Below are positions 39,689 to 60,248 of a DNA stretch of 64,000 nucleotides, piece by piece. The stretch is taken from IMG/VR virus record IMGVR_UViG_3300026289_000086; one strand, 5' to 3'. This DNA is from a virus. Its lineage: Duplodnaviria; Heunggongvirae; Uroviricota; Caudoviricetes. Position 1 is the stretch's first letter, and the number at the start of each line of letters is the position of its first letter. The notes under the pieces were generated by a model. That model was not told where the DNA came from. It searched no databases and saw only the letters and a list, made by a program, of their open reading frames with translations. The translations under genes were made by a program, and so were the position numbers.

Positions 39689-40191
39689 AGCGCAATGCAT
39701 GGGGCTCGCACCCGTTCAACAGCACACTAGAGACCGGAATCCGTGCGCTGGTGCTGCTGGAGGCCTTCTATCCGCGGCGCTGTGATCTGCTGGAGATGAC
39801 TTGGCTCGACCATCTAATCGTCCACACCGGCGACCTCGACGGCCAAGATGTGCCGGAAAGCTTGCATCCGGATTTACCCAACCGCGCCGGGGAGTTGCTC
39901 GTGCGCCGCCAACTGGTCGAGAAAAGCTTGCGCCTGATGCAGCAAGTGCATCTCGTCGACGTGTTCGAAACTGAGGAGGGTATTACGTTCGGTGCCAGCG
40001 AAGACGCGCCGAGCTACCTGGATCTCCTGCAGGCGCCGTATTCCCTTGCCCTCAAGGAACGCGCCAAGTGGATGGCCAACCGCTTCGCGGGCATGCAAAC
40101 CGCCGAGATGCGAGCGCTGATCGAGAGCCGCATCGGACGCTGGACCGCTGACTTCCGGGTAGAAGAGCTGCCAACGGGGCTTCAAAAATGA
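39676..40191 (+). CDS. Helical hypothetical protein (candidate 'middle component'), gene 2
   Basis: 171 aa, overlaps gene 1 by 13 nt and gene 3 by 4 nt. No catalytic motifs. Confidence 0.45.
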   Translation: MGSLERNAWGSHPFNSTLETGIRALVLLEAFYPRRCDLLEMTWLDHLIVHTGDLDGQDVPESLHPDLPNRAGELLVRRQLVEKSLRLMQQVHLVDVFETEEGITFGASEDAPSYLDLLQAPYSLALKERAKWMANRFAGMQTAEMRALIESRIGRWTADFRVEELPTGLQK

Positions 40192-42053
40192 ACGGCATCC
40201 GTCTGCGTCATCTGGTCTTCACCGGCCCGAACGTCGAGCTCGCCGAGCTTGAGTTCGGCGATGGCTTGAACATTGTTTTCGGTGCCTCCAACACCGGGAA
40301 GTCATTTGCGTCGAAGGCCATTCTCTTCGCGCTGGGCGCTTCCGGGAAGCTGCCGGAGACTCAGGAGATCAAGGCTTACGACGGTATCTGGCTCGGCATC
40401 ACGTTGGCCGACCAGGGCGAGTTTACGCTTTATCGGGCGACGCGCGGCGGCCACCTCAAGCTCTTCCCAGGCCTGATCAAGGGCGCGCAAAATTCCAAAG
40501 GGGAAGTACTACGCCAAGCGCACACCTACAAGCGCACCGACACCGTCTCGCATCGACTGCTTGAGGCTATTGGCCTGGCCAACAAGTGGGTGGTGCGCGA
40601 CGGCAACGGCAAGAAAGACTCGCTGTCCATCCGTCTGCTGTCGAAGTACTTTGTGGTGGGGGAAACGGACATCATGTCCGAGACCAGTCCGGTCTATCTA
40701 TCGGGCAGTCCGACAGAGCGCACGTTCGAGCAGAACCTCTTCAAGCTCCTCCTCACAGGCAGCGACGATTCGGCAGCCGTGACAGTCCCGAACGAGACGG
40801 AGCGCAAGGCCGCCAAGGCGGCGAAAATCGAGCTGGTCGACGAGTTGCTGGCGCAACTCGACGCTGAACTCGGCGGGGAGCCAACGGATAAGAAGGAAAC
40901 TGACGAGCAGCTTGAGCGACTCGATCAGAGTGCCGACGGCTTGCACGCTCGGTTGCAGAACACGCAAAACGAGCTGGATGGCCTCGTGGTCGCGCGACGT
41001 GCAAACCTTGATCGTAGCCGCGAACTGCAAGAGCGCGCCGGTGAGCTAGAGCTAACGCTGCAGCGCTTTGCCAAGCTGAAGGCGGTCTACAGCTCCGACC
41101 TGGATCGTCTACACTCCATTGAGGAAGGCGGCTACGTGCTGGTGGCCATGGTCGGACGTGACTGCCCGGTCTGTGGCGCTCCGCCCGACGCCCAGAAACA
41201 CAATCACGCCGCGGATGAGATTTCTATGGCGCACACGGCCGCTACCGCCGAGGCCTCCAAGATTGAGCGCGAGCAACGAGAACTCGCGCCCGTGATCGCC
41301 TCGCTTGAGGCCGAGGCCGTCGGTCTGAGTAAGACCATCGACAAGCTAATGACCGATACCGAGAGGCTAGACGGCGCTATTCAGGGCCTCCGCCCCCAGG
41401 AAGCATCTCTACGGGAGAGCTACGAGACCTACAACTCGAAGCGCGCCGAGATCCTCAAGGTGCTCGACCTCCATCACCGGCGCGCGAAGCTGGCATCGCG
41501 GCGCGCCGAGATCGGCGCCGTTCCGACGAAGCGCGAGGGTGAGCCGGCACGGGTAGGCCTGGACTCAACGACTGCATTTGACTTCGGCGAGACGGTGAAG
41601 GCAGTGTTGAAAGCCTGGAAATTCCCCGACGCTGACAAGGTCCAGTTCGATGGGAAGGCCAACGACATTACTGTCGGAGGCAAATCCCGTGCTGCCAATG
41701 GCAAGGGGGTCCGGGCAGTGCTCCACGCGGCTTTCAACGTCGCGGTGATTGTCCACTGCATCGACAACAACCGGCCGCATGCTGGCTTTCTAGTGCTCGA
41801 CACCCCGCTGCTCACCTACCGCGAGCCGCTGAAGTCGAAGTACGGTGAGTTGTCGCAGGACGAGGCCGAGCTCAAAGCTACCTCGCTCGCGGAACACTTC
41901 TACAAGTACCTCTCGAGCCTCGCGGAGCGCGTGCAAGTCATCGTCATCGAGAACTCGGATCCGCCCTCAGCCATTGACGGGTTGGCCCGCATCGAGACCT
42001 TCACTGGTGAGCAGGGCAATGGGCGGGCTGGGTTGCTCGCCAGGCTCGCATGA
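40188..42053 (+). CDS. Rad50/SMC-like ABC ATPase with coiled-coil insert and CPVC zinc-hook, gene 3
   Basis: Walker A 'FGASNTGKSFASKAILFALG' at the N-terminus. A long coiled coil contains a central 'RDCPVCGAPPD'. C-terminal Walker B/D-loop 'GFLVLDTPLLTYREP'. Confidence 0.7.
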   Translation: MNGIRLRHLVFTGPNVELAELEFGDGLNIVFGASNTGKSFASKAILFALGASGKLPETQEIKAYDGIWLGITLADQGEFTLYRATRGGHLKLFPGLIKGAQNSKGEVLRQAHTYKRTDTVSHRLLEAIGLANKWVVRDGNGKKDSLSIRLLSKYFVVGETDIMSETSPVYLSGSPTERTFEQNLFKLLLTGSDDSAAVTVPNETERKAAKAAKIELVDELLAQLDAELGGEPTDKKETDEQLERLDQSADGLHARLQNTQNELDGLVVARRANLDRSRELQERAGELELTLQRFAKLKAVYSSDLDRLHSIEEGGYVLVAMVGRDCPVCGAPPDAQKHNHAADEISMAHTAATAEASKIEREQRELAPVIASLEAEAVGLSKTIDKLMTDTERLDGAIQGLRPQEASLRESYETYNSKRAEILKVLDLHHRRAKLASRRAEIGAVPTKREGEPARVGLDSTTAFDFGETVKAVLKAWKFPDADKVQFDGKANDITVGGKSRAANGKGVRAVLHAAFNVAVIVHCIDNNRPHAGFLVLDTPLLTYREPLKSKYGELSQDEAELKATSLAEHFYKYLSSLAERVQVIVIENSDPPSAIDGLARIETFTGEQGNGRAGLLARLA

Positions 42054-42985
42054 GCGAGCACGCGCACTCGGTCCAGGTCACCGCTGGGAATTCGCAGCTT
42101 GCCGACCTGAAGAGGTCCTGGGTCACCGCAGTGTTCAGTGTCGAGGATGGCATTGGCCCCATGGAATCGCTGCATCAGGCCGGAGACTCGATCATTGCCG
42201 TAGCGACAATGACGGATCAAGGGATCAAAGTCATCGGCAGTGGCGTGATGATCGGCCCCGGACTGATGCTGACAGCAAGCCATGTCCTCGATGAGTTTCC
42301 GCAGGAGGGCACGGGCCCCGTCTGCTTGACATTCCTTCCGGGGGCAACTCGCGCGTGGCTGCCATGCGGAAGGACGACGTTGACTGGTGCCAGCTCATTT
42401 GCTCCCAACCGTCGCAAAGTGTCCGACCTGACATTGATGAGCTGCAGTCTTAACTCCGAGGCCCACGAAGAATTTCCTATTGTTCTGGCGCCAATTCAAC
42501 TGGCACTGCCATTGATCGGCGAACGGCTGTGGGCCTTCGGGTACCGCCATGGCGACATTCTGGACGGCGCAGCCTTGCTTACGCCACTGGTCACCTCCGG
42601 CGTCGTGACCGGCTGCTATCCGCAGGGCCGTGGTGAGCGCATGCCATCCACCTGCATCGAAGTTGAAATGGATACCATGGGCGGCATGAGCGGCGGACCC
42701 GTCGTTAACGATGATGGCTGGCTTGTGGGCATCGTTTCGTCGTCGTTCGAAGGCGGACCAACCTACGTCACGCTCGTCTGGGATGCAATTCGCATCTCGG
42801 TCGGAGAGGCTCCGAAGAACCTATGGCCAGGCGGCGCGGCGGATCTCATGATCGGACGAGACTTGGGCCTTGTAAAGCTCAAGGGCGCCGTAACGCGGGA
42901 CGCAGAAGGCAACGTGACGCTCACCATGTCGGATCCGGAGATGGAGCAACTGGCGACGTTCAGTGATCCGATACACATTACCTGA
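42050..42985 (+). CDS. Trypsin-like serine protease (chymotrypsin fold), gene 4
   Basis: Candidate catalytic His 'LMLTASHVL' and the Ser motif 'MGGMSGGPVVND' (GDSGGP-like). ATGA overlap with gene 3. Confidence 0.7.
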   Translation: MSEHAHSVQVTAGNSQLADLKRSWVTAVFSVEDGIGPMESLHQAGDSIIAVATMTDQGIKVIGSGVMIGPGLMLTASHVLDEFPQEGTGPVCLTFLPGATRAWLPCGRTTLTGASSFAPNRRKVSDLTLMSCSLNSEAHEEFPIVLAPIQLALPLIGERLWAFGYRHGDILDGAALLTPLVTSGVVTGCYPQGRGERMPSTCIEVEMDTMGGMSGGPVVNDDGWLVGIVSSSFEGGPTYVTLVWDAIRISVGEAPKNLWPGGAADLMIGRDLGLVKLKGAVTRDAEGNVTLTMSDPEMEQLATFSDPIHIT

Positions 42986-43203
42986 CGCAACTAGCGCAGA
43001 GGTGAATCATCTACGGCGCCCCTACTTCGAGTTGTACCCCGTACTTCGAGCCGAAAGTGTAAGTGTGAGTTCGCCGACTACGTAAGCTGACGTATCGCTT
43101 GCAAACGTCATTAGGCAGCACTGGGTCGGAACCGGGAATTGACCTCCCCGATATCGAGATGGCAATGAAAGGCAAAGCAAACTACCGAAGGTAGAATACT
43201 GCC

Positions 43204-43345
43204 ATGACCCGCGCTGATTTGATCGCCGCCATCGCCTCCCGCTTCCCAACGCTGACGGCGAAAGACGCCGACGTCGCAGTCAAGGAAATCCTTGATGCCA
43301 TCGGACGCTCCCTGGCGCAAGGTGATCGTGTCGAAATCCGTGGGC
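43204..43345 (+). pseudogene. Truncated IHF-beta/HU-family DNA-binding protein gene (N-terminal ~47 codons only)
   Basis: 'MTRADLIAAIASRFPTLTAKDADVAVKEILDAIGRSLAQGDRVEIRG' aligns with the IhfB/HU N-terminus up to 'IEIRG' and then loses similarity. zorD ends 113 bp downstream on the other strand. Confidence 0.55.
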
Positions 43346-43457
43346 AACAAACGCTTCCGGATCACCTGGCCTGCGTCGCCATTCAGCGCGTGCGCGCAAT
43401 GGCGATGACGATGTCTTGCGATGATCCGCCCAATCGTGCGCGACGCGACCTGATTGC

Positions 43458-46400
43458 TCATCCGCCATCCCACCCTGAAAACAGGAATGAGGCAAGTTCG
43501 CCACGGCGAATCGGTTGTTCGTTGAGGCGTTCTGCTAAGTCTTCTGAATCGAGTAATTCGACATGGTTGATTCGCCCCTGCTCACGCGCAGTGCGGTTGA
43601 ACCGACAATTGGTCACTGCGACAAGGGAAAAGCGAACCTCTGGATGGCGCGCTGCATATGCGGCCGATCCCGCGACCACATCTTTTACCGCCTCCCATCC
43701 TAGTTCCCGGCCGTCGATCGACGAACTCTTGCACTGGATAAGAACTCCGGCCTTTCCGTTGATCGCCACCACATCGACCCCGCCGTCCCCAACGCGAGGG
43801 GTGCGCCTAGTGTTCCGGTATCCCAGCTTGCTCCAAAGGATTGCGCAGAAGGCCTCGAATGCATCTGGGTCGAGTTCGCCGAGTTCGTCGGCCCTGATGA
43901 GATCCGGGCCGAACGCGTTACCGCCGCCAGGGGCCTCCAAGTCGCCGAAGTCTGACGGACGCAGGTCCCCGGTCCCGTTGAGCATATCCGTGGAGAGGCC
44001 GCGCTTCCATTCGAGCAGGGCGTCCAGTTTCTGGTCAAATGTAGTGAAATCCTCGGCCAACACGACAGGGTAATAGACGAACACGTCCTTCGTCTGGCCG
44101 ATTCGGTAAGCGCGGTCGGTGGCCTGGTCTTCCTTGGCCGGATTCCATGTCCGCGTGAAGTGGACGACATGGTTCGCCGCTTGGATGTTAACCCCGAAGC
44201 CGACAGCCAGCGGGGAAAGGATGATCGTTCCAAACCCCGGGGCCTCTTGGAACTTCGTGATGCGTTTCTGGCGGTTGTTCGAGTTACCTGCGGCCGCAGA
44301 GGTGTCCCCGTTTATCACATCGGGAAGAAAGCCCAGGCGTTCGTGGATGACTCGTTGCAGCGTTCGCTGCAAATCGCGGAACTCGCAGAAGATGATGGCT
44401 TTTTCTCCAGCAGCCCGGATGTGCCCGAGCTTGTTGAGCAGCCATGCCATTTTCGGAGAGTGCCGAATGATTTCCGTTACGGGCTCGGAGCCACCGGAGA
44501 CGCTGCCCGGCGGGCGGGGGTCCGAGCAGAGGCGACGCAGGTATTGAAGCAGCCCGAGATGGCTCTGGAGGCCAGAAGGTGCCCCTCCATCGGATCCCTT
44601 GCGAAACAACCCAACGGCTTCAGCGTAGTGCGCCCGCTGCCGATCCGACAGTGGCAGACTTCGGCATTCGAGAACCTCGATCTTCTTCGGCAGGTCCTTG
44701 GCCACATCCGCCTTGACCCTACGCAGTTTTTGCGGCTCGATGAGTTCGCGCAGTTCTGCGACCCTGTCCTTTTCCTCTTCACTCTCCGCCTCGATCGGCT
44801 TGCGATAGCGTTCCCCAAAGTCCTTTAGGGCGCCGAGCAGTCCCGGCTGAACGAAGTCGAACAAACACCAGATGTCGGTGAGCGTGTTCTCAACCGGTGT
44901 TCCCGTGCAGGCGATCTTGAACCGGGCATTTTGCTTTTTCGCCGCACGCGTCACCAGCGCATTCGGGTTCTTGATCTTCTGCGCCTCGTCGCAAACCATC
45001 ATTGACCAGCGTTGCCAAGCCAGCGAAAACTCTAGGTCGCGCAGCGTTTCGTACGTCGTCAGAACGATCTTCGCGTCGCCGAGCCAGTCGCGCCGGAGCA
45101 GCCTCGTCACGCCGGCCCCAGCGAGTTCCTCGTTGAGCGAACTTCTTGGCAGGCGTTTTTGCGCAAGGTCGGAACCGTAGAGCGTCAGGATCGGTAACGC
45201 TTTGGGCTCGAAGAACTTTCCGATTTCCTCTTTCCAGTTCTCCAGCAGGGAGACCGGGGCCACGACGAGAAACGGGTCGATTTTCTCATTCGCCTCAATG
45301 GCTGCGGCCATGAACGCGAGCAGTTGAATAGTCTTGCCAAGCCCCATGTCGTCGGCGAGCAGAGCGCCCCTACAGTCGCCAGGGGATTTTCCCCACAGGT
45401 GTTGGAGCCACGCCACACCGGTTTTTTGATGTTCCTTGAGCTCGATCTCGCGTTTGAGGCTCGACGGTAGGACGGGGGCCAGCCCCTCCGGCATGGCCAG
45501 CCAGCCCCGGCACTCCTCGTAATCGAGCGTGTCGACATTCGGCTTGACCACCAAACCTTTGCGTTCGATCGGAACGCGTCCACCGACTCCAGGCTTGCTT
45601 GGCTCGAATGTACCCGATGACACAGCGGCGCTGGCCGATCCGAGTGCTTCAAGAGCCTCCTGCGCCCACGCAACATTTAGTGGTTTTGGGCAACCTGGGA
45701 ACTGAAACGACTTGAGGTTTTCCTCCTTAGCCTTAGCCAACGCCTCGCGGAACGCTCCGAGCGTCTCCTCAGACAGCGCGACGGCAACCGTGCCCCCGCC
45801 GCCCTCGGGCGTGTAGCACAGACCAACGTCGACGTTGTCCGGGAACCAGCCGGACTCCTCGCTTTTTCTGGCGATGAACGGAGAGTAGTAGGGTTTCTCG
45901 ACCCCAAAACCCTCAACCCGTTCCGAGTATCGAGTGATGTCGAATATCTCGGACGCCTTGAAACCCGTCGCCCCCCCCAGTTCGTCGTGGGCAGCCCACA
46001 GCAGGGCCGCTTGGTCTGGGGTGTCCCCGAGTATTTCCAAATCGGCGCCTTCCCAGTGGCAGCACTGGGAGCCCCTTGCGATCCTCTCGTCGAGCTTGGT
46101 GAGGAACTTCTCCAATGCGTCGGCGCCTTCGAACACCACTTCCTCGGCGGTAACGTGGCCGGCGCTGGTTTCTTCGACCAAAATTCCCGTCTCGAATGGC
46201 CGTCCGGAGTCGTCGCGCCTCACGATTGCCGTGAAACGGGCGAAGGAGATGCCGGCCTCTTCCCTGGCGTCCTCGAATTGCTGCGGATCGATGACCTTGG
46301 CGGCATCGGGGCCCAGCGCGGCGAACGGATTGCGCGCGAAGGCTTCGGCGCGCTCACCACAGACCCTTCGACCCGGCATTCTCTTGATTTCCCGCAGGAC

Positions 46401-47189
46401 AGTTCGGGCCTCTGGAGAGATGACGATGTGAGCAAGCCCCTCGCCGTCGGGAATCTCATAGCGTTCCCCGACCGATCCTAGCCGGTCGAAAATTTCCAGC
46501 CAGCGCGGCGGTTCCCCATCAAATCCCGGAATGACCTCGATGGTTCCGCTTGCGCCTTTGCGCATCCGGATGTGGATTTTCTCCGGTGTCAGGACGACGG
46601 TCTTTTTGAGGAAATCCGAAAGGTCGGAGCCAGCCGAAACCGCCCGCGTCCTTATTGCGGCCCAAGCCCTGCGGTTGGAGTCTGCGTTCCTCCCTTCTTT
46701 GGGCCGCGCATGAAATTTAGCGACGGCCTGCAAGGTCTCCCACGTCTCAGGCGGCAGCAGAGCCTCTGAGGATCCCGTTCGAAGCAATGCGTCCTCTATG
46801 GCGGGATCCGAGCGCAGCGGAAGATCGTCGGGACCGACCCATCCAGCAATCGCCACCGAGAATTCCTCGTCTGTCAGCGAACCCCTGCTGGACAACGCTG
46901 GGCGCCAGCGTTGGACCGGGGGCAGCCCAAGAATCGGCATGCCTTCGGCATGGGCCGGCGACGACATGAGGCGATAAAGGCTATCCCACTCGATCCGTGC
47001 GCTGTCTCCGTCTCGCTCGACGTACCCCTCGTCCTCAAGTTGGGCGACCAGTGCCGCGAACTCAGTCAGAGGGCCAGCCAATGCTCCGGGAAACAGAACT
47101 CCCTCGGACGTGAATTCGGTGGTCGGGCGCTTGGACGCGACGGCATCGTCCACCTTCTTCTTGCCCGAGCCAAACACAGACCATCCCAT
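43458..47189 (-). CDS. zorD: ZorD: SNF2-family helicase with C-terminal Mrr-like nuclease domain (Zorya type I)
   Basis: Motif I 'LLADDMGLGKTIQ', motif II 'MMVCDEAQKIKN', 'TGTPVEN' and a helicase-C region. The C-terminus 'VDVVAINGKAGVLIQCKSS' gives D...QxK. Its position as the 4th gene after zorABC fits. Confidence 0.8.
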   Translation of the reverse strand: MGWSVFGSGKKKVDDAVASKRPTTEFTSEGVLFPGALAGPLTEFAALVAQLEDEGYVERDGDSARIEWDSLYRLMSSPAHAEGMPILGLPPVQRWRPALSSRGSLTDEEFSVAIAGWVGPDDLPLRSDPAIEDALLRTGSSEALLPPETWETLQAVAKFHARPKEGRNADSNRRAWAAIRTRAVSAGSDLSDFLKKTVVLTPEKIHIRMRKGASGTIEVIPGFDGEPPRWLEIFDRLGSVGERYEIPDGEGLAHIVISPEARTVLREIKRMPGRRVCGERAEAFARNPFAALGPDAAKVIDPQQFEDAREEAGISFARFTAIVRRDDSGRPFETGILVEETSAGHVTAEEVVFEGADALEKFLTKLDERIARGSQCCHWEGADLEILGDTPDQAALLWAAHDELGGATGFKASEIFDITRYSERVEGFGVEKPYYSPFIARKSEESGWFPDNVDVGLCYTPEGGGGTVAVALSEETLGAFREALAKAKEENLKSFQFPGCPKPLNVAWAQEALEALGSASAAVSSGTFEPSKPGVGGRVPIERKGLVVKPNVDTLDYEECRGWLAMPEGLAPVLPSSLKREIELKEHQKTGVAWLQHLWGKSPGDCRGALLADDMGLGKTIQLLAFMAAAIEANEKIDPFLVVAPVSLLENWKEEIGKFFEPKALPILTLYGSDLAQKRLPRSSLNEELAGAGVTRLLRRDWLGDAKIVLTTYETLRDLEFSLAWQRWSMMVCDEAQKIKNPNALVTRAAKKQNARFKIACTGTPVENTLTDIWCLFDFVQPGLLGALKDFGERYRKPIEAESEEEKDRVAELRELIEPQKLRRVKADVAKDLPKKIEVLECRSLPLSDRQRAHYAEAVGLFRKGSDGGAPSGLQSHLGLLQYLRRLCSDPRPPGSVSGGSEPVTEIIRHSPKMAWLLNKLGHIRAAGEKAIIFCEFRDLQRTLQRVIHERLGFLPDVINGDTSAAAGNSNNRQKRITKFQEAPGFGTIILSPLAVGFGVNIQAANHVVHFTRTWNPAKEDQATDRAYRIGQTKDVFVYYPVVLAEDFTTFDQKLDALLEWKRGLSTDMLNGTGDLRPSDFGDLEAPGGGNAFGPDLIRADELGELDPDAFEAFCAILWSKLGYRNTRRTPRVGDGGVDVVAINGKAGVLIQCKSSSIDGRELGWEAVKDVVAGSAAYAARHPEVRFSLVAVTNCRFNRTAREQGRINHVELLDSEDLAERLNEQPIRRGELASFLFSGWDGG

Positions 47190-47192
47190 TGC

Positions 47193-48926
47193 TCATTCCC
47201 TCCACCAGCCTTTGCCGGCTTTGTAGTTGAATCCCCACCGGCGTAGTGCGTATGCGACCGCTCCGATGCTTTCGTCAGTCCGGACCCACAGCGCCCCGCC
47301 CTTCGGGCGCAAGTCCTCGATAGAAACTCTCCAACTAGCGGCAAATTTCGCAAGGCCTGCCATGCTTACTGAGGCGGACAAGTCGTCCGCGCCGGTCTGC
47401 TCGGCGACGACGCGCTTGGCCGCAGGCTTCGTCCTAGGCTTGAATGATTGGCCGAGTCTGCGGGCGGACTCCTCGGGGCGATGACCGATAAGCGGGCAGA
47501 TGACGTAGTCAAACTTCTGTTCCCAGGTCAGCCCAGCGCTCTCGCTGTCCCTGTGAATCAGTCGGTCGATGTGGTTCCGGTTTTTCAGTCCGTGGATCGA
47601 AATGCTCGAGCGTTCTTTGCTGGAGCGGAGCTTCTGTGACAGGGTTGAGGGGATCGACTCCCATCGGAACAGGTAGAACGCGTTGCCCTTGGCCCCGAAC
47701 TCGACGGCCAGATACTCGCCGACTCTCATGATGAACGCGTTGTTATCCGCTGTAGTCTGGTCTAGGTCGAGCAGCAGGCCTTGCGCCCTTTGGCGGAAGT
47801 CATCGAACTCCTCGCCGCGGCGGGACTGGGTGTCGGCCCCAAGAGCGAACCACATGTCGCCGACGAAGGGCTCGAAGCGCAGCCAGTAATCGAGCCTGCG
47901 TGTATCGCCGATCCCATCCGCGCTCAGCAGTTCGAAGAAGTCGCGGATCAGGCGACGCTTGAGCCATCCGTTGATCATTTCCCGCGCCCCGTCGTCGGGG
48001 CGGCCCCTAGAGTCAACGACTGCAGAGTCCCATGCCGCTCGGCGCAGCCACGGATTCCCAATGATCGAGACTGCTGCGTCGCGTAACGCCATTTGTTCAG
48101 TTGTCGCCAAACAACGCGAATAGCGCGACGTCAGGAGGGCCACGCACTTAATCCGCAAGGCCTTCGGGATGAATACGTCGCCCTTACCTGTGGCAATCGG
48201 CAAAAGCTTGTCGAGCACCGACTTGAAATCCTCCTCGCCTAGTTTCGAGGCAGACCTCATACGCGAATAAACCGCTTCTTGCCTGACCCACGAGTCGGTT
48301 GGAATAGCCAGCGATTCGACGGCGGAGTTCAGAGACGAGGTATCGCCTTGCAGCAGGGCTGGGCCGTATTTTTCGCACGGATCCGAGCCAAGCAGGTTCG
48401 AGTGTTCGGCAAGCGGCGTCATCCATCCTGGCTTGCGACCTGCCGCTTTCTCCAGCGAGTGGCGCTTCCGTTCGAGCCACGCGCCCACGGCTCTGAAGCC
48501 CTCGACGGCAACCACGTCGGTCGATTCGGCGTGCAGGGGGAATGTCCAGTAGCCCCGTAGCAACGCCTGGAGGCATTTGGTCTGCCGTCGAGTGTCCCCC
48601 GCAGCATCGGCGGCAGCGAGTAGTTTTCCCCGAAGCCTGTCGTCCGAAATCAGGATACGTCCGCGGTCGTCCAGACTGCCAGCCCCGAGGCAAACATACT
48701 TGAGCTCACGAAAGCTAGCGGCTATTCCCGTACGGCGGAATGCGGCAACGGCGGCGGACATCGCTCTCGGGTCGGACGGCGGGGCCGGTGCGTCGAACAC
48801 GGCCCGCACTTGGCTGATCATGCGCTTGGTAGCAGCGTCATCGGTCCATGCATCATGATGCGCCGCCGGGATCGGGATGAAAGTCGCCCGCAGCCGCGAG
48901 CGCAGGACTGCGATCGATTCGATCAT
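47193..48926 (-). CDS. zorC: ZorC (Zorya type I)
   Basis: A ~577-aa protein between zorB and zorD. The likely start is the ATGA overlap with the zorB stop (48926) rather than track start 48989. Size and context are as in E. coli type I Zorya. Confidence 0.65.
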   Translation of the reverse strand: MIESIAVLRSRLRATFIPIPAAHHDAWTDDAATKRMISQVRAVFDAPAPPSDPRAMSAAVAAFRRTGIAASFRELKYVCLGAGSLDDRGRILISDDRLRGKLLAAADAAGDTRRQTKCLQALLRGYWTFPLHAESTDVVAVEGFRAVGAWLERKRHSLEKAAGRKPGWMTPLAEHSNLLGSDPCEKYGPALLQGDTSSLNSAVESLAIPTDSWVRQEAVYSRMRSASKLGEEDFKSVLDKLLPIATGKGDVFIPKALRIKCVALLTSRYSRCLATTEQMALRDAAVSIIGNPWLRRAAWDSAVVDSRGRPDDGAREMINGWLKRRLIRDFFELLSADGIGDTRRLDYWLRFEPFVGDMWFALGADTQSRRGEEFDDFRQRAQGLLLDLDQTTADNNAFIMRVGEYLAVEFGAKGNAFYLFRWESIPSTLSQKLRSSKERSSISIHGLKNRNHIDRLIHRDSESAGLTWEQKFDYVICPLIGHRPEESARRLGQSFKPRTKPAAKRVVAEQTGADDLSASVSMAGLAKFAASWRVSIEDLRPKGGALWVRTDESIGAVAYALRRWGFNYKAGKGWWRE

Positions 48927-49657
48927 CTGCTGGGGACCGGGCATTTGGAGTCCTCGTCCCAAGGAATGTCGGGTGGTGGCGTGTCGCATTTGCTTTGGCC
49001 GGCGGGGCAGAGTTCCTTGAACTCGAGCCGGAGCTCGACTCGGCGGCTTTCCTCAGGGATTTTCTTGATCGAGTTGAAGGACGACCCGCCGACGAGGAAC
49101 AGCGTGCGGATCATCTTCCGGTCGTCGACGCTGGGGGCATCGGCGGCGCTCGCATCCAGAAGCACGCAAAGCATTCGTTGAGACCGCTCCAAACTAAGGT
49201 TCAGGTTGTAGAGGTAGGAGCCCTCTTGGCTCGCGAAGCCCTCGACGACAACTCGCTTGAGCCACTTCTGGCAGCTTTCGTGGCGGGCGACTTCGAGAAC
49301 CTTCGGAACGAACCTGCGCAGGAACACCCTGCGTTCGGATGTGAGGTCATTGCCGTCTTTTTTGAACTCGGCAAGGGAGCCGAACTCGATCGCGTGTCCG
49401 CGCACCATCACTCCCTTGAACTCGGGCCTCTGGGTAATTCTCTCGATGTCGGTGATGCACGCCCGGATCGTTTCGTCTCGATCCTTCTTCTCCTGCTCGA
49501 TTTCACGAAGCCCTTGTGTGACAGCCATCAGAGCGACGGCCATGGCAACGAGGAAAAGCACCATAAGCGCCGTCATCAGGTCGGAGAACGATATCCAGAA
49601 CGGCTTCTCGGCCTCGTCCTTGGAGGAGGTGCGCCGCGGTGTCTTGATGCCGAGCAT
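48923..49657 (-). CDS. zorB: ZorB: MotB/TolR-like protein with OmpA-like peptidoglycan-binding domain
   Basis: N-terminal TM with a conserved Asp ('ISFSDLMTALMVLFLVAM') and a C-terminal OmpA-like region. Overlaps the zorA stop. Confidence 0.75.
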   Translation of the reverse strand: MLGIKTPRRTSSKDEAEKPFWISFSDLMTALMVLFLVAMAVALMAVTQGLREIEQEKKDRDETIRACITDIERITQRPEFKGVMVRGHAIEFGSLAEFKKDGNDLTSERRVFLRRFVPKVLEVARHESCQKWLKRVVVEGFASQEGSYLYNLNLSLERSQRMLCVLLDASAADAPSVDDRKMIRTLFLVGGSSFNSIKKIPEESRRVELRLEFKELCPAGQSKCDTPPPDIPWDEDSKCPVPSR

Positions 49658-49663
49658 GGGGTC

Positions 49664-51667
49664 TTACCTCTTCGCTGGCAAGTCGTCGAGGGTGTCTCCA
49701 AGGTCCTTAATGGCTCCAGAGAGCAGGCCCACCGCGTCGCCGAGCTCCTTCTGGAATTGGCGGTTGCCCTCGCGCAGGGTGCGCGTGACGTTTTCGGCAA
49801 ACGACTCGTGAGCCTTGCCGAGGACGTCGCTGACGGCTTCGAGGTATTCCCCGGACTGCTTTTCCGCAGCGGCGAGTTGCATGGCTGCCTCTTTAAGGGT
49901 TTTAACAATCTCGGAAGTCATTGAGGCCTCCTTGCGGGCGTTCTCCACGATCGACTTCATTTCCGAGACCATCGTGGCGAACGAGTCGCGCGTTCTCCCG
50001 TAGTCGGCGACGATGTCGCAGGCCGCGTTGGTGGCCGACGCGAGTGTGCCGGAAGACTCGCGGATCAATTCCACGGCGGCCGAGGACGAACGCATCGTCT
50101 CGGAGACACCCGATCCTGCCTTAGCAAAATCGGAGGCCGCGACGTAAAGTGTTTCGGCCCCTTGGTTGAGTCTGTTGATCGCCTCGGTCGTGGCCGATGA
50201 CAGGCGCGCGATCGTGTCCTGCAAGGACTTGGTCGTTTCGACCGACTGGGCGAGAAGGGCCTCGGTTTGTTGGGAAAGTGATCCGATCGCCCTGCCGGTG
50301 CTCTCTTCGAAATTCAGCTGGCGGCGTCCTTGGGAGACGGAAGCCTCCTCGGCTTGCCTGCGTAGTTCGCTGACGGCGGCCGCAACCTGCACGCCCATCG
50401 TTGAGAGGGCCTCCTGCATTTTCTTTCCCGTCTCCGACTGGGACTCTGAGGTCATCGAGCGCAGTTGCTCGACGAATTCACCCATCTGCTTGTTCATGAT
50501 CTGCTGGCGGGCCTCCATCGAGGTGATGGCGTGATTGAGGCGGTCGGTCATCGAGTCGACGGCATTCTTGCCGGCAGAATCCATTCCCTCGGCGAGCCGT
50601 GAGAACTGGGAGGCTGTGTCGCGCATGGCGTCGCTAGTCTGGCGCAGAAGGTCGCTCATTCCCTGCATCTGGCCACCAAACATTTCACGCATTTGCGCCG
50701 AGAAGCTTGATAGCACGTCCGTGAGCATTTTGTTGAGGGCGTCGCCTTGGCTGGCACTGACCCCCTTTACCGCTTCGGCAATCACGGTGATGGGCTCTCC
50801 GAGGTGATCACCGATGGCCTTGCCGACATCGACGGAAATTTGCCTCGTGGCGCGGGCGTTCTCTTCGACCTGTCGAGCAGTTATCTCCGACAGAATTTCG
50901 CGCAGGTCCGCCACGAGGGCATCCTTAATCTGCAAGGCTTGCGTCGCCTGCGTTTCGGAGGCAACCACTAGACGCTCGAGGTATTCCTCACCGGCTCCCC
51001 CATCGAACATGCTGTCGATCAGGTGGCAAAGTTCCTCGACCTGCCGATACCGGGCAGTCACAAGGGACTTCTCAATCCATGTAAAGAGCATCGCCAGGGC
51101 GATTGCGGTAGCAGAGACGAAGAACGCGTGTCCAACAGCTTTGACCAGATTGCTCAACTCCGTTTGTGCCAGTTCTGGGTTAATCGATACGTTAAAGTCG
51201 ATCAGACCAAGGATCAGGCCGGAAAACGTTCCGATAATGCCGAGGCCGGTCAGAATTCCGGGGACGTGCTTGTAGAACTCCGTTTTGAGGGGCGAGTCGA
51301 CCACGGAGTGCTCGGAGAAGAAAATTTCGGACAGCGCGGTCGCCCGCCAGCGTTTGACTCGCATGAGCCCGTTGCCATCGTCGGCGCGTTGTGGGTGCAG
51401 GGTCTCGGTGTATTCGCTCCAAAGATGCGCCAAGCGGGGTTCAATCATTGCCTCTCTTGCGATTTCATCCAAATCGACCGCCATCCCGGCGGCCTTCGTC
51501 TTGGTTTGCGAGATGGCTTTGATGACTTTCGCGAGCGCTCCGCCAAGGCGCAGTGCCGGAAGCATGAAGCGGAACACGAATCCGAATGAGACAATGGCGA
51601 TAATCGCGCCGACGGTCCAAACGTGCCAATTCTGCGAAAAAACGACCAAAATCTCGTTCGTTGCCAT
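49664..51667 (-). CDS. zorA: ZorA: MotA/ExbB-like proton-channel protein with long coiled-coil tail
   Basis: N-terminal TM, then 'GILTGLGIIGTFSGLILGL' and 'FFVSATAIALAMLF' (a MotA/ExbB-type TM core), followed by ~450 aa of coiled coil. Confidence 0.8.
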   Translation of the reverse strand: MATNEILVVFSQNWHVWTVGAIIAIVSFGFVFRFMLPALRLGGALAKVIKAISQTKTKAAGMAVDLDEIAREAMIEPRLAHLWSEYTETLHPQRADDGNGLMRVKRWRATALSEIFFSEHSVVDSPLKTEFYKHVPGILTGLGIIGTFSGLILGLIDFNVSINPELAQTELSNLVKAVGHAFFVSATAIALAMLFTWIEKSLVTARYRQVEELCHLIDSMFDGGAGEEYLERLVVASETQATQALQIKDALVADLREILSEITARQVEENARATRQISVDVGKAIGDHLGEPITVIAEAVKGVSASQGDALNKMLTDVLSSFSAQMREMFGGQMQGMSDLLRQTSDAMRDTASQFSRLAEGMDSAGKNAVDSMTDRLNHAITSMEARQQIMNKQMGEFVEQLRSMTSESQSETGKKMQEALSTMGVQVAAAVSELRRQAEEASVSQGRRQLNFEESTGRAIGSLSQQTEALLAQSVETTKSLQDTIARLSSATTEAINRLNQGAETLYVAASDFAKAGSGVSETMRSSSAAVELIRESSGTLASATNAACDIVADYGRTRDSFATMVSEMKSIVENARKEASMTSEIVKTLKEAAMQLAAAEKQSGEYLEAVSDVLGKAHESFAENVTRTLREGNRQFQKELGDAVGLLSGAIKDLGDTLDDLPAKR

Positions 51668-51692
51668 ATTCGTATTATTCTTTCATTGTTCT

Positions 51693-51739
<47 letters not shown>

Positions 51740-52004
51740 ACCGGCTATCTCCCGAACCGCAGGCTAGCCGATTTTTTCCTCCGCCCTGACCGACTCGCTA
51801 CGTACCTACGCCTAAAACTTTCCAAGTTTGGCGCTTGCCGAAGGCTGCGAGCCTATGATAATAGCAACTTCACCCGAAAATATTTCTTGTAAATACAAGC
51901 CGAATTCGGGGGGTTACCCAAGCACCGTAGTTGCGCACGCGAGACCGGCGTGTTCAATCACTTCGTTGGGTGCACTGACGTGCCGAACTGCTTGATGCCG
52001 ACCC

Positions 52005-52817
52005 TCAGATTGGGTAGGACCGGAGGCGAGAGACCTCCGGCCATCCGGGACCGCTCGTCCCGAGACGACGCACGACCTTGCCAATAAAAAGTTCCACCTC
52101 GGCAGCACTCGGCACGATGAAAGGGCCAACGAGACGGCCGTCTGTCACCTCCGTCGTCCGTCCTCGCGAAAGCCGATAAACGAACGCCGCCAGGTCGGAG
52201 TTATTGCGCTTGTGGTTGCCAGGCTGTGTCTCACTCGTGACGAATTCATGCACGAGCATGACCGCGCGGGAGTAACCCTTTCGCTTTGCCTCAGACACCG
52301 CCCCAGCGCAGGCGGTAAGTAGTTGGTAGCGCAGTTCGCCTAGCCGTGGCTCGCCTTTGACGCGCGGACCGAACAAGGAAAGAACCAGTTGTTCAACACG
52401 GGCGACCCCGTTCGACCGCGGGTTCCCAAGGCGGCGTTCGAGTGCATCGGCCAGCGTTTTCGAGACCTCGTCTCCGTACGGCTCGTCCGCCTTGGCCTCG
52501 ACAGCAAGCAGATAGGGACCGATTGCGTCGATCACATAGACCACAAGGTCGCTATTCCTCGGCTCACCGGGGAATCTGTCGAAACGTAGCTTGGCTTCTG
52601 GCTCAGCTTCCCAAGATAGAACCGCGCCAAAGCTACTGTGGGCTGCCAAGGAACTCGCGACTTCAGGCGGCAAAGCCGTTCCTCCTCCCTCCAGCCAAGC
52701 GCGGGCGACTTCTTTGGCACTCCTCCCATCGACCCAGTGGTAGTGGGCCTTCGGTGGAGCATACGTCTCCCAATCAGAGAGAGACGCGATGACGTGACCA
52801 GCTTTTGCGATTGGCAT
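52005..52817 (-). CDS. PD-(D/E)xK nuclease-fold hypothetical protein
   Basis: The sequence 'SDLVVYVIDAIGPYLLAVEAKADE' gives a D...E-x-K core on a β-strand pattern. 270-aa stand-alone gene next to Zorya. Confidence 0.45.
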   Translation of the reverse strand: MPIAKAGHVIASLSDWETYAPPKAHYHWVDGRSAKEVARAWLEGGGTALPPEVASSLAAHSSFGAVLSWEAEPEAKLRFDRFPGEPRNSDLVVYVIDAIGPYLLAVEAKADEPYGDEVSKTLADALERRLGNPRSNGVARVEQLVLSLFGPRVKGEPRLGELRYQLLTACAGAVSEAKRKGYSRAVMLVHEFVTSETQPGNHKRNNSDLAAFVYRLSRGRTTEVTDGRLVGPFIVPSAAEVELFIGKVVRRLGTSGPGWPEVSRLRSYPI

Positions 52818-53204
52818 GGAGATTGAGGGCGGTGTGTAATCGGATTTATCTGGCGCCCAGAAGTGGCCGGACTGAGGCGCCGAGGGCGATGTTGATCACG
52901 ATTGTAGCCCACGTCTCGGAAGCCCAAAGCTCCTTTTCAGGCAGCTTCGAATCGTTCCGGTATCAGCCAGCACGACCACCGATCCCGAACTGCAACCTCT
53001 GCCCGGCCCATTCCACCGGAAATGCCCGCGCGACTGCCTTGATCATGGTGTTGTCGATGGTCGCCATCGGCGCCGGATTTCCGTACGTGCCATCGGGTAG
53101 AACGATCACCTTGCGCCCGCCTCGCTTCTTGAAGGTCATGGGGATATCGACGGAGACGACTTCTGCCGAGGTGACTTCTGCCCTGGTGGCCATCACGCTG
53201 CCTT

Positions 53205-59987: not shown

Positions 59988-60248
59988 CGTTTCCTGGAGG
60001 CGACTCGCATCGGAGCTGCGGGGAGTCTTCCTCGACATACTTCTCCAGGCGATGGATCGCGAACGAACGGGTCGCGGTCCATCGCCTGCTGCCCGTCGGC
60101 AGGCTTGAGTCGTGTTCGTCAAGCCAAACGGCGTTCGTTCTGTCGAGGGGCGATGACCCTTCCCTTGCCGGAAGCGGGAGGAGACACGCCGCCGATCGGC
60201 GAAAGGGCGCGGCTTGCGGATAACCTCGGGCCGGAAGGCGCGGGGCGT

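What the first reader, a model, noticed from the sequence alone, without database searches (positions are those of the whole stretch)
43458..51667. Complete type I Zorya (zorA-zorB-zorC-zorD) on the minus strand
The gene order and domain content match the published Zorya type I. ZorA is MotA/ExbB-like with a ~450-aa coiled-coil tail. ZorB is MotB-like with a conserved TM Asp and an OmpA-like domain. ZorC is ~577 aa. ZorD is an SNF2 helicase (GxGKT, DEAQ) with a C-terminal Mrr-like D...QCK nuclease. The genes abut or overlap (4-bp ATGA between zorB/zorC, 3-bp gap between zorC/zorD), which implies a single operon.
Basis: partly seen in the sequence, partly recalled or inferred. Interest (0 to 1): 0.6.

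Follow-up and report, generated by a model that had tools for sequence, protein, structure and literature searches.

The report
Complete type I Zorya defence operon
This is an intact, ordinary four-gene type I Zorya anti-phage system (zorABCD) in a Candidatus Accumulibacter genome, and its only unusual feature is a length-variable (GACA)n repeat just upstream of zorA.

Summary
Four tightly packed minus-strand genes at 43458-51667 match the PADLOC type I Zorya models over their full length: ZorA1 E=1.7e-241, ZorB1 6.7e-88, ZorC1 2.8e-180, ZorD1 E=0. They also match the solved E. coli EcZorI structures 8QYD, 8R68 and 8QY7. Every residue shown by mutagenesis to matter in EcZorI that I checked is present. 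All stated junctions and motifs are real.

ZorD carries an extra C-terminal Mrr-type nuclease domain that the solved E. coli ZorD lacks. This architecture was already published, and 15 of 16 related loci with a ZorD have it. Near-identical proteins in NCBI are already named 'anti-phage ZorAB system protein ZorA [Accumulibacter]'. The locus sits in an island rich in insertion sequences, convergent with a Lamassu system.

A (GACA)8 microsatellite lies 26 bp upstream of the zorA ATG and is the only such repeat in the window. It occurs as 8, 7 or 5 copies in otherwise nearly or fully identical public contigs, so it may tune Zorya expression. That is unproven.

Verdict: a new member of a known kind, of low interest.

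The parts
49664..51667 (-). zorA, 667 aa. MotA/ExbB-like core with three TM helices (residues 14-41, 135-162, 174-199), followed by a 445-aa helical cytoplasmic tail (about residues 223-667).
   Evidence: PADLOC ZorA1 PDLC00598, E=1.7e-241, residues 8-666 against profile positions 7-662 of 663. PDB 8QYD_A, E=1.1e-90, over the full length in two stretches. NCBIfam antiphage_ZorA_3 at 453.6 bits against a cut-off of 250. Hydropathy.
48923..49657 (-). zorB, 244 aa. MotB-like, with one TM helix (19-51) carrying Asp26, and a periplasmic peptidoglycan-binding domain with Y150, N151, L154 and R158.
   Evidence: PADLOC ZorB1 PDLC00611, E=6.7e-88. PDB 8QYD_F, E=8.1e-48, with alignment. Pfam MotB_plug at 25.9 bits against a cut-off of 24.
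47193..48926 (-). zorC, 577 aa from the ATG in the ATGA overlap. An alternative start at 48944 gives 583 aa. EH-signature DNA-binding protein with E409, H458, W468, R344 and W348.
   Evidence: PADLOC ZorC1 PDLC00625, E=2.8e-180. Pfam EH_Signature at 112.2 bits. PDB 8R68_A, E=1.6e-24. Invariant residues in 15 orthologues.
43458..47189 (-). zorD, 1243 aa. ZorD-specific N-terminal domain, Snf2 ATPase and a C-terminal Mrr-type nuclease.
   Evidence: PADLOC ZorD1 PDLC00632 at 1448.5 bits. PDB 8QY7_A, E=3.7e-242, over residues 28-1082. Pfam domains.
44067..45443 (-). Snf2/helicase core of ZorD (about residues 583-1041). Walker A GLGKT at 616-620, DEAQ at 734-737, and E655, which corresponds to EcZorD E651.
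   Evidence: Pfam SNF2-rel_dom 587-891 at 210.7 bits and Helicase_C 918-1031. Motifs.
43527..43877 (-). Mrr_cat (PD-(D/E)xK) nuclease domain of ZorD (residues 1105-1221), with E1112, D1139 and Q1152-C-K1154. This domain is absent from the solved EcZorD.
   Evidence: Pfam Mrr_cat at 59.1 bits against a cut-off of 21. D1139 and QCK are invariant in 15 orthologues. The domain is present in 15 of 16 related loci that have a ZorD.
51693..51734 (-). Tetranucleotide microsatellite, (GACC)2(GACA)8 on the coding strand. It ends 26 bp upstream of the zorA ATG and is length-polymorphic (8, 7 or 5 GACA units) in public contigs.
   Evidence: TRF reports period 4 and 10.5 copies, and no other tract in the window exceeds 3.4 copies. 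L047 is identical over 12.7 kb apart from one unit.
51668..52004 (-). The 337-bp region 5' of zorA. It has an AT-rich stretch at about 51860-51900 that includes an extended-minus-10-like TGCTATTAT. There is no Shine-Dalgarno sequence before the ATG. The last 25 nt or so are conserved with the 82%-identical orthologue L001.
   Evidence: Sequence. The consensus promoter scan found no convincing site on this strand upstream of zorA. Comparison with L001. The promoter position is inferred, not shown.
43182..43194 (-). Weak terminator-like hairpin plus T-run, 264 nt downstream of the zorD stop codon. It is a possible end of the operon.
   Evidence: The number of such hits in the region equals the chance expectation (10 found against 9.5 expected), so this is only a candidate.
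52005..52817 (-). DUF6946 gene on the same strand, upstream of zorA. It stays next to zorABCD in a second Accumulibacter context but not in more distant relatives. There is no evidence that it belongs to the system.
   Evidence: Pfam DUF6946 at 95.9 bits. The block shared with L050 spans window 43438-53024. No match next to Zorya in L001-L039.

Best explanation
This is a functional type I Zorya anti-phage operon, zorA-zorB-zorC-zorD, in a Candidatus Accumulibacter chromosome island.

The mechanism is inferred by homology to E. coli EcZorI (Hu et al., PMC11946911). It was not tested here.
- ZorA and ZorB form a ZorA5B2 inner-membrane motor driven by protons.
- ZorB anchors the motor to peptidoglycan through its dimeric periplasmic domain. 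ZorB Asp26 and ZorA T147/S185 form the ion path.
- The five ZorA tails form a helical bundle of about 445 aa reaching roughly 60 nm into the cytoplasm. That length is scaled from 507 aa and about 70 nm in E. coli.
- When phage invasion perturbs the envelope, the motor is activated and the signal travels down the tail.
- The tail recruits ZorC, which binds dsDNA through its EH motif, and ZorD, a Snf2 ATPase/nuclease. Together they destroy the incoming phage DNA locally, without killing the cell.

In this clade ZorD also carries a C-terminal Mrr-type PD-(D/E)xK domain with an intact D...QxK motif. I infer that this domain performs or adds to the DNA cleavage, and that the Snf2 motor supplies translocation.

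The four genes are most likely transcribed as one unit from the 337-bp region upstream of zorA. They appear to be translationally coupled, given the ATGA overlap and the 3-bp and 6-bp gaps.
For: - Full-length, very strong matches of all four proteins to PADLOC type I Zorya models and to the solved EcZorI proteins.
- ZorA passes the curated NCBIfam ZorA subfamily cut-off.
- Pfam EH_Signature, SNF2-rel_dom, Helicase_C and Mrr_cat are all above their cut-offs.
- Residues shown by mutagenesis to be essential in EcZorI are conserved here:
  - ZorB: D26, Y150, N151, L154, R158.
  - ZorA: P126, P136, I144, T147, S185, P164, E165, E85, E88, R108, H91, E228, Y229, L251, L255, L259, I262.
  - ZorC: D341, R344, W348, E409, plus H458 and W468, which are invariant in 15 orthologues.
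  - ZorD: K619, D734-E735-A-Q, E655.
- The Mrr D1139 and QCK1152-1154 motif is invariant in 15 orthologues.
- TM topology is as expected: three TM helices in ZorA, one in ZorB, none in ZorC or ZorD.
- All ORFs are intact. The 12-17 kb around them is 99.5-100% identical in nine independent public assemblies.
- NCBI already names near-identical proteins as ZorA, EH-signature protein and SNF2-related protein of Accumulibacter.
- A defence-island setting: Lamassu lies immediately convergent, and several IS elements are nearby.
Against: - No functional data exist for this locus or for any Accumulibacter Zorya. No paper was found.
- The narrow NCBIfam equivalog models built around EcZorI are the best hits but fall below their strict cut-offs: ZorA1 388 against 750, ZorB1 217 against 400, ZorC 149 against 490, ZorD 1045 against 1500. 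This is a diverged clade, so details may differ.
- The ZorA tail is 62 residues shorter than in E. coli, and every engineered tail truncation abolished defence in E. coli. However, PADLOC model PDLC00598 is 663 positions long and is matched end to end, so this length is natural for the clade.
- One of the two ZorB disulfides of EcZorB does not align cleanly. The beta1-beta2 loop Cys is absent here, and there is a Cys129 instead.
- The promoter and the operon structure are inferred only. The consensus scans for promoters and terminators are at chance level.
- The role of the Mrr domain relative to the Snf2-domain nuclease activity reported for EcZorD is unknown.
Confidence: 0.93

Rival explanations
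1. This is a Zorya operon whose expression is stochastically tuned or switched by slipped-strand changes in the (GACA)n tract 26 bp upstream of zorA. That would make it a phase-variable or 'volume-control' defence system. This refines the main explanation and does not replace it.
For: - The tract is the only microsatellite in 64 kb.
- It lies in the 5' region of the operon, directly next to the 25 nt or so before the ATG that are conserved with orthologue L001.
- It occurs as 8, 7 and 5 units in public contigs.
- Contig L047 is identical to the window over 12.7 kb apart from the loss of one unit. The tract therefore changes much faster than point substitutions accumulate.
- Intergenic and 5'-UTR repeats are known to control expression in other bacteria, for example hmw1A in H. 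influenzae (PMC12721329).
Against: - No expression data exist.
- Only three alleles were seen, and assembled contigs give only consensus alleles.
- Predicted mRNA folding and start-site accessibility do not change between 0 and 12 units.
- The tract does not change the spacing between any recognisable -35 and -10 elements. GACA registers fall at 15 or 19 nt from an AATAAT, whatever the copy number.
- The repeat is absent from all 20 related zorA loci examined, so it is a recent lineage-specific feature and could be neutral.
- No paper links Zorya with phase variation.
Confidence: 0.3
2. The SNF2 protein is DpdE, and the locus belongs to a Dpd (7-deazaguanine DNA modification) or other SNF2-based system such as DISARM or BREX. 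On this reading it is not Zorya.
For: ZorD also hits PADLOC DpdE model PDLC02854 at E=9.6e-245. It hits DrmD and BrxH models weakly.
Against: - The ZorD1 model scores far higher (1448 against 813 bits) and covers the ZorD-specific N-terminal domain.
- The NCBIfam DpdE hit is negligible (29.6 bits against a cut-off of 500).
- The three genes immediately upstream are ZorA, ZorB and ZorC.
- None of the 20 neighbouring ORFs scanned with PADLOC matched any other Dpd, DISARM or BREX component.
Confidence: 0.01
3. The ZorAB-like pair is an ordinary MotAB, ExbBD or TolQR stator or energiser that merely happens to lie next to a helicase.
For: There is distant homology to MotA/MotB. Pfam MotB_plug scores 25.9 bits, and public records name ZorB 'flagellar motor protein MotB'.
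Against: - ZorA has no Pfam MotA_ExbB hit at E<=1e-3.
- ZorA carries a 445-aa tail that is homologous along its length to the EcZorA tail.
- No flagellar, Ton or Tol genes are nearby.
- ZorC and ZorD follow in a tight operon.
Confidence: 0.01
4. The operon is a decaying, non-functional remnant in an island riddled with insertion sequences.
For: - The surroundings hold IS1595, IS110, IS21 and Tn5-like transposases, a truncated SRAP gene and a truncated HU/IHF-like gene.
- One public contig (L046) has zorD split into 503-aa and 760-aa ORFs.
Against: - All four ORFs in the window are full length against their profiles, and every checked catalytic or structural residue is intact.
- The L046 split is a G7-versus-G8 homopolymer difference in an otherwise identical 14.7-kb contig. 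That is typical of a pyrosequencing error.
- In the 97.8%-identical strain (L050), ZorA, ZorB and ZorC differ by 1, 0 and 2 residues, which fits purifying selection.
Confidence: 0.05

Closest known systems
[quoted passage not shown]
   Same: - The same four genes in the same order.
- All four proteins align along their length: E=1.1e-90, 8.1e-48, 1.6e-24 and 3.7e-242.
- The mutationally essential residues are conserved: ZorB D26 and the PG-binding residues, the ZorA ion filter, Ca site and tail leucine rings, the ZorC E/H motif, and ZorD DEAQ and E655.
   Different: - The ZorA tail is 62 residues shorter (667 against 729 aa).
- ZorD has an extra C-terminal Mrr_cat nuclease domain of about 160 aa (1243 against 1080 aa).
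- One ZorB disulfide is probably rearranged.
- Scores fall below the NCBIfam equivalog cut-offs built on the enterobacterial clade.
- The host is a 64% GC betaproteobacterium.
- A (GACA)n repeat lies in the 5' region.
Type I Zorya as first defined by Doron et al. [quoted passage not shown] The PADLOC ZorD1 description is 'SWI2/SNF2 helicase, Mrr-like nuclease'.
   Same: The domain architecture is exactly as described, including the Mrr-like domain on ZorD.
   Different: Nothing substantive. This is a further instance in a different genus.
Rhodocyclaceae MAG BF4_14 locus (L001, JAVEWG010000019.1), the nearest species-level relative found
   Same: zorABCD is colinear. Protein identities are 82% (ZorA), 83% (ZorB), 78% (ZorC), 81% (ZorD core) and 88% (Mrr domain). 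The zorB/zorC ATGA overlap and the last 25 nt or so before the zorA ATG are conserved.
   Different: It has no GACA repeat upstream of zorA, and its flanking genes are different.
Shewanella sp. ANA-3 type I ZorAB (PDB 8VVN; Mariano et al., Nat Commun 2025, PMC11890865)
   Same: The same family and the same 5:2 ZorAB architecture. ZorA matches over residues 79-655 (E=1.9e-17) and ZorB at E=1.3e-8.
   Different: It is much more distant than EcZorI and belongs to a different type I sub-clade.
Expression control by intergenic or 5'-UTR simple sequence repeats, e.g. H. influenzae hmw1A (ATCTTTC)n (PMC12721329). From my own knowledge, also the N. meningitidis nadA TAAA tract and the M. catarrhalis uspA2 AGAT tract.
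   Same: A short tandem repeat lies just upstream of the first gene of the unit, and its copy number varies between otherwise identical genomes.
   Different: - No effect on expression has been shown here.
- No hairpin involving the repeat is predicted.
- The host is an environmental organism not known for phase variation.
- The controlled unit would be a Zorya system, for which no such control has been reported.

Membership tests
Zorya type I | ZorA: a MotA/ExbB-like membrane core of three TM helices, followed by a long C-terminal helical tail. | tested here: met
   PADLOC ZorA1 E=1.7e-241, end to end. 8QYD_A E=1.1e-90, covering both core and tail. NCBIfam antiphage_ZorA_3 at 453.6 bits against a cut-off of 250. 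Three hydrophobic segments and a 445-aa tail.
Zorya type I | ZorB: MotB-like, with a single TM helix carrying the conserved Asp, and a peptidoglycan-binding domain. | tested here: met
   PADLOC ZorB1 E=6.7e-88. 8QYD_F E=8.1e-48, with D26, Y150, N151, L154 and R158 aligned to EcZorB D26, Y151, N152, L155 and R159. The Pfam OmpA hit alone is below its cut-off (22.4 against 27.2 bits).
Zorya type I | ZorC: a protein with an EH-signature domain and conserved Glu and His. | tested here: met
   Pfam EH_Signature at 112.2 bits against a cut-off of 27.5. PADLOC ZorC1 E=2.8e-180. E409 aligns to EcZorC E400. E409, H458 and W468 are invariant in 15 orthologues.
Zorya type I | ZorD: a large Snf2-family ATPase with Walker A and a DEAQ box, often with a C-terminal Mrr-like nuclease. 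| tested here: met
   PADLOC ZorD1 at 1448.5 bits. 8QY7_A E=3.7e-242. GLGKT at 616, DEAQ at 734 and QCK at 1152. Pfam SNF2-rel_dom, Helicase_C and Mrr_cat.
Zorya type I | Colinear zorA-zorB-zorC-zorD on one strand, forming a compact unit. | tested here: met
   The ORF map and the junction sequences: a 6-bp gap, an ATGA overlap and a 3-bp gap. The same order is found in 15 related loci.
Zorya type I | ZorA5B2 stoichiometry and proton-driven rotation. | not testable with these tools
   This is inferred only, from conservation of the residues at the EcZorAB interfaces. It needs cryo-EM or at least a multimer prediction, which was not run.
Zorya type I | Protection against phage that depends on all four genes. 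| not testable with these tools
   This is experimental. No publication on an Accumulibacter Zorya was found.
NCBIfam EcZorI-like equivalog clade (NF041794 ZorA1, NF041788 ZorB1, NF041789 ZorC, NF041790 ZorD) | A score above the curated equivalog cut-off. | tested here: not met
   These models are the best or near-best hits, but the scores are 388 against 750, 217 against 400, 149 against 490 and 1045 against 1500 bits. The system therefore belongs to type I Zorya in the broad sense (PADLOC), but not to the narrow enterobacterial equivalog group.
Zorya type II / type III | ZorE (HNH) for type II, or ZorF/ZorG for type III, following zorAB. | tested here: not met
   ZorC and ZorD follow zorAB. 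ZorA2, ZorB2 and ZorB3 models score only 22-65 bits.
Dpd system (DpdE) | DpdE is accompanied by dpdA, dpdB, dpdC and the other dpd genes. | tested here: not met
   The only Dpd hit is the cross-hit of ZorD to a DpdE model, weaker than the ZorD1 hit. There are no Dpd hits among 20 neighbouring ORFs. NCBIfam DpdE scores 29.6 bits against a cut-off of 500.
SSR-mediated phase-variable locus | A hypermutable repeat whose length changes alter expression of the adjacent gene. | tested here: inconclusive
   Length polymorphism is shown: 8, 7 and 5 units, and L047 differs from the window by the repeat only. An effect on expression was not testable. In-silico mRNA folding shows no dependence on copy number.

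The most novel reading that the evidence does not exclude
The (GACA)n tract next to the zorA start may be a contingency element. Slipped-strand gain or loss of units would change Zorya expression between cells of one Accumulibacter population. This would be bet-hedging between the cost of defence or autoimmunity and protection from phage. It would be the first phase-variable or expression-tunable Zorya, and it would be in an environmental, non-pathogenic bacterium.
Probability: 0.25. Interest if true: 0.55.

Novelty: new member of a known kind. Interest (0 to 1): 0.2.

Why it matters
As a Zorya instance it adds little. The type I architecture with an Mrr-bearing ZorD is published, standard HMMs detect it, and NCBI already names near-identical proteins.

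It is mildly useful in three ways:
- It documents the defence repertoire of Candidatus Accumulibacter, the key organism of phosphorus-removing wastewater plants. Phage predation there is thought to shape population dynamics. Zorya sits beside Lamassu in an island rich in insertion sequences, and the island differs between strains.
- It is a natural ZorD that carries both the Snf2 domain and an intact Mrr nuclease. In this protein the two candidate nuclease activities could be separated genetically.
- The length-variable GACA repeat gives a concrete, cheap test of whether Zorya expression can be switched stochastically.

Tried and rejected
- A fifth operon gene. Public gene calls place a 116-aa ORF overlapping the zorD stop by ATGA (window 43111-43461). 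I rejected it for three reasons. It has no family hit. It is absent downstream of zorD in all relatives. The opposite strand encodes the first 46 residues of an HU/IHF-type Bac_DNA_binding domain. The ORF is therefore most likely the antisense of a truncated gene.
- DUF6946 as a Zorya component. It travels with zorABCD in two Accumulibacter contexts but is absent next to Zorya in 39 other loci. Linkage is unproven.
- Plasmid origin. A ParM-like ALP_N gene at 55786-56760 suggested it, but megablast of the operon against PLSDB gave no match.
- An RNA switch formed by the repeat. Folding with 0-12 units gave identical structures and identical start-site accessibility.
- A promoter with spacing set by the repeat. 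The GACA registers lie 15 or 19 nt from an AATAAT box whatever the copy number, so spacing within the promoter cannot vary. The consensus scan found no site upstream of zorA on that strand.
- The repeat in relatives. None of 20 related zorA upstream regions has any SSR, apart from an unrelated G14 in L015.
- The metagenome pattern scan returned only two contigs, both with 5 units. It did not give the allele spectrum I had hoped for.
- The literature search found no paper on Zorya with phase variation or on Zorya in Accumulibacter.
- Structure prediction was not run. Sequence homology to solved structures already answered the questions, and alignments built from fetched loci are not accepted by that tool.

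Full report
**Observation**

- zorA, 49664-51667, 667 aa
- zorB, 48923-49657, 244 aa
- zorC, 47193-48926, 577 aa (the longest ORF runs from 48989)
- zorD, 43458-47189, 1243 aa

I read the junctions directly:
- zorA stop, then 6 bp, then the zorB ATG.
- zorB and zorC share ATGA.
- zorC's TGA, then 'gca', then the zorD ATG.

The zorC start has one ambiguity. An in-frame ATG at 48944 is preceded by GAGGA, and public gene calls use it, giving 583 aa. The ATGA overlap is conserved in L001, L006 and L017.

**Identity**

- PADLOC-DB gives full-length top hits to type I Zorya models for all four proteins:

| Protein | PADLOC model | E-value / score |
|---|---|---|
| ZorA | ZorA1 PDLC00598 | 1.7e-241 (residues 8-666 on 7-662/663) |
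| ZorB | ZorB1 PDLC00611 | 6.7e-88 |
| ZorC | ZorC1 PDLC00625 | 2.8e-180 |
| ZorD | ZorD1 PDLC00632 | E=0, 1448.5 bits |

- Pfam adds the following, all above their gathering scores: EH_Signature on ZorC (112 bits), SNF2-rel_dom, Helicase_C and Mrr_cat on ZorD, and MotB_plug on ZorB. OmpA on ZorB is just below its gathering score.
- NCBIfam places ZorA above the curated cut-off of the antiphage_ZorA_3 subfamily.
- The strict equivalog models built around the enterobacterial system are best hits but below their cut-offs. This is therefore a diverged clade of type I, not the E. coli-like equivalog group.
- Against the PDB, all four proteins find the solved EcZorI components:

| Protein | PDB chain | E-value |
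|---|---|---|
| ZorA | 8QYD_A | 1.1e-90 (core and tail) |
| ZorB | 8QYD_F | 8.1e-48 |
| ZorC | 8R68_A | 1.6e-24 |
| ZorD | 8QY7_A | 3.7e-242 (residues 28-1082) |

**Functional residues**

I took the mutational map of EcZorI from Hu et al. (PMC11946911) and read the equivalents off the alignments.
- **ZorB:** D26 is the essential proton-carrying Asp. Y150, N151, L154 and R158 are the peptidoglycan-binding residues.
- **ZorA:**
  - P126, P136 and I144.
  - T147 and S185, the ion filter.
  - P164 and E165, the periplasmic latch.
  - E85 and E88, the Ca site.
  - R108, H91, E228 and Y229, the contacts between the tail base and the rest of the protein.
  - L251, L255, L259 and I262, the hydrophobic rings of the tail.
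- **ZorC:** D341, R344, W348 and E409. An alignment with 14 orthologues extracted from related loci shows E409, H458 and W468 invariant.
- **ZorD:** K619, D734-E735-A-Q and E655.
- **Hydropathy:** three TM segments in ZorA, one in ZorB and none in ZorC or ZorD. The ZorA tail of 445 residues has only two prolines.

Nothing suggests decay.

**Differences from the solved system**

- The ZorA tail is 62 residues shorter than in E. coli. The best PADLOC model is 663 positions long and is matched end to end, so this length is normal for the clade.
- ZorD has an extra C-terminal Mrr_cat domain (residues 1105-1221; E1112, D1139, Q1152-C-K1154). EcZorD (1080 aa) lacks it.
- This Mrr architecture is the one originally described for ZorD (cited in PMC11890865) and is written into the PADLOC model description.
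- Among related loci fetched with ZorA, 15 of the 16 that contain a ZorD relative also contain the Mrr domain. D1139 and QCK are invariant.
- One of the two EcZorB disulfides does not align cleanly. I did not pursue this.

**Mechanism (inferred by homology, not tested)**

- A ZorA5B2 proton-driven motor is anchored to peptidoglycan and senses envelope perturbation during phage entry.
- The signal passes down the pentameric ZorA tail, about 60 nm long here by scaling.
- The tail recruits ZorC, which binds DNA, and ZorD, an ATP-dependent nuclease. They degrade the invading DNA locally.
- In this clade the Mrr PD-(D/E)xK domain probably performs or adds to the cleavage.

**Source and context**

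- The exact ZorA sequence occurs on at least 23 public contigs, among them EBPR-sludge metagenomes (UW2007, CAP726) and a GenBank MAG.
- Near-identical proteins are named by NCBI 'anti-phage ZorAB system protein ZorA [Candidatus Accumulibacter delftensis / Accumulibacter sp.]', 'EH signature domain-containing protein' and 'SNF2-related protein'.
- The nearest species-level relative is a Rhodocyclaceae MAG at 78-88% protein identity.
- The operon lies in a stretch of lower GC (about 18-58 kb) that carries:
  - Tn5-like, IS21, IS110 and IS1595 transposases.
  - A truncated SRAP gene.
  - A subtilase plus radical-SAM/SPASM gene pair.
  - A ParM-like gene.
  - A Lamassu operon immediately convergent with zorD: LmuA with CTD6, LmuC/MC2 and LmuB, plus an overlapping trypsin-like peptidase gene.
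- Between zorD and Lamassu lies the first half of an HU/IHF-type gene on the plus strand. This explains away the 116-aa 'gene' that public annotations call after zorD.
- In a second Accumulibacter strain (L050, 97.8% identical), homology to the window runs only from 43438 to 53024. That block is DUF6946 plus zorABCD. A different convergent neighbour replaces Lamassu.
- None of the window's neighbours accompanies Zorya in the 39 more distant loci.
- No match was found in the plasmid collection.

**The one unusual feature**

- Twenty-six bp upstream of the zorA ATG lies (GACC)2(GACA)8, at 51693-51734. It is the only microsatellite in the window.
- In public contigs it has 8 units (seven contigs), 7 units (L041, L047) or 5 units (L049, L050).
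- L047 is identical to the window over 12.7 kb except for this one unit. The tract therefore mutates much faster than the surrounding sequence.
- The tract abuts the 25 nt or so before the ATG that are conserved with the 82%-identical orthologue L001. L001 and all other relatives lack the repeat.
- Whether it affects expression is open.
  - Predicted mRNA structure and start-site accessibility do not depend on copy number.
  - No promoter with repeat-dependent spacing is recognisable (and by inspection).
- Intergenic and 5'-UTR repeats do control expression elsewhere, for example hmw1A (PMC12721329).
- I found no report of a phase-variable Zorya.
- I rate tuning or phase variation at about 0.25-0.3.

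**Rivals**

- A Dpd, DISARM or BREX reading rests only on cross-hits of the Snf2 domain. The stronger ZorD match, the ZorABC neighbours and the absence of partner genes exclude it.
- An ordinary MotAB or ExbBD reading is excluded by the tail and the gene context.
- A decayed remnant is unlikely, given intact ORFs and residues. The single split zorD in a public contig is a G7-versus-G8 homopolymer difference, typical of a sequencing error.

**Verdict**

This is a new member of a known kind, already recognisable with standard tools. Interest is low (0.2). The polymorphic GACA tract is the only lead worth a small experiment.

Noticed in passing
window 51693-51734 (minus-strand GACA units), 26 bp upstream of the zorA ATG: (GACC)2(GACA)8 is the only microsatellite in the 64-kb window. 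Public contigs carry 8, 7 or 5 units. One contig is identical over 12.7 kb apart from one unit. The repeat is absent from all related zorA loci. It may tune expression.
   Followed up: partly
window 38687-42985 (+): A complete Lamassu (ABC-3C) system lies convergent with zorD. It comprises LmuA with a CTD6 effector domain (38687-39688), LmuC/MC2 (39676-40191) and LmuB (40188-42053). A trypsin-like peptidase gene (42050-42985) overlaps lmuB by 4 bp and may be an extra effector.
   Followed up: partly
window 43204-43344 (+), overlapping the 116-aa ORF 43111-43461 (-): A truncated HU/IHF-type gene (Bac_DNA_binding profile positions 1-46 of 90) lies directly 3' of zorD. The 116-aa ORF that public annotations call after zorD, with an ATGA overlap, is probably its antisense and spurious. 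The fragment marks a junction between the Zorya and Lamassu cassettes.
   Followed up: yes
window 43438 and 53024; locus L050 200-9775: Homology with a second Accumulibacter strain (97.8% identical) ends 20 bp after the zorD stop and about 200 bp beyond the DUF6946 gene. DUF6946 plus zorABCD therefore behaves as one block. That strain has an SMC/Rad50-like ATPase gene as its convergent neighbour in place of Lamassu. Its ZorD differs by 40 residues, visibly concentrated in the C-terminal part, while ZorA, ZorB and ZorC differ by 1, 0 and 2. This suggests a recombination tract.
   Followed up: partly
window 52005-52817 (-): A DUF6946 protein (270 aa) of unknown function lies on the same strand, 337 bp upstream of zorA. 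It has no PADLOC or NCBIfam hit.
   Followed up: partly
window about 45964-45971 (zorD codons for ELGGAT): A G8 homopolymer lies inside zorD. Public contig L046 has G7 there, which splits zorD into 503-aa and 760-aa ORFs. This is most likely a pyrosequencing error, but a G8 tract is also a potential slippage site.
   Followed up: partly
window 32197-35268: An IS21-family element (istA 32340-33878, istB 33891-34625) is flanked by arrays of a 23-bp repeat (32197-32274 and 35213-35268). An IS110-family transposase lies next to it (35658-36935, minus strand).
   Followed up: no
window 24848-27836 (+), GC 0.49-0.52: A gene pair of a subtilase (Peptidase_S8, 481 aa) and a radical SAM/SPASM protein (399 aa) sits in the lowest-GC part of the island. 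The radical SAM protein has weak viperin-like PADLOC hits (E about 1e-15) that probably reflect only the shared radical-SAM fold. The pair could be a peptide-maturation or a defence-related pair.
   Followed up: no
window 53218-54267 (-), 55786-56760 (-), 28116-29549 (+), 23222-23677 (+): Other mobile-element features of the island are an IS1595 transposase, a ParM-like actin (ALP_N), a Tn5-like transposase and a truncated SRAP gene (profile positions 1-129 of 214).
   Followed up: no
window 55965-61029 compared with locus L040 3765-5703: The 281-kb UW2007 scaffold is 100% identical to the window on both sides, but it carries 1.9 kb where the window has about 5 kb. This is a structural variant between Accumulibacter assemblies.
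   Followed up: no
loci L011, L015, L022, L027 (zorA-zorB-zorC-like, no ZorD match) and L025-L037 (zorAB only): Several Rhodocyclaceae and Comamonadaceae loci have ZorA and ZorB relatives followed by a ZorC-like gene (matching residues of about 35-480 only) but no detectable ZorD, or by neither gene. These are probably other Zorya subtypes or variants and were not examined.
   Followed up: no
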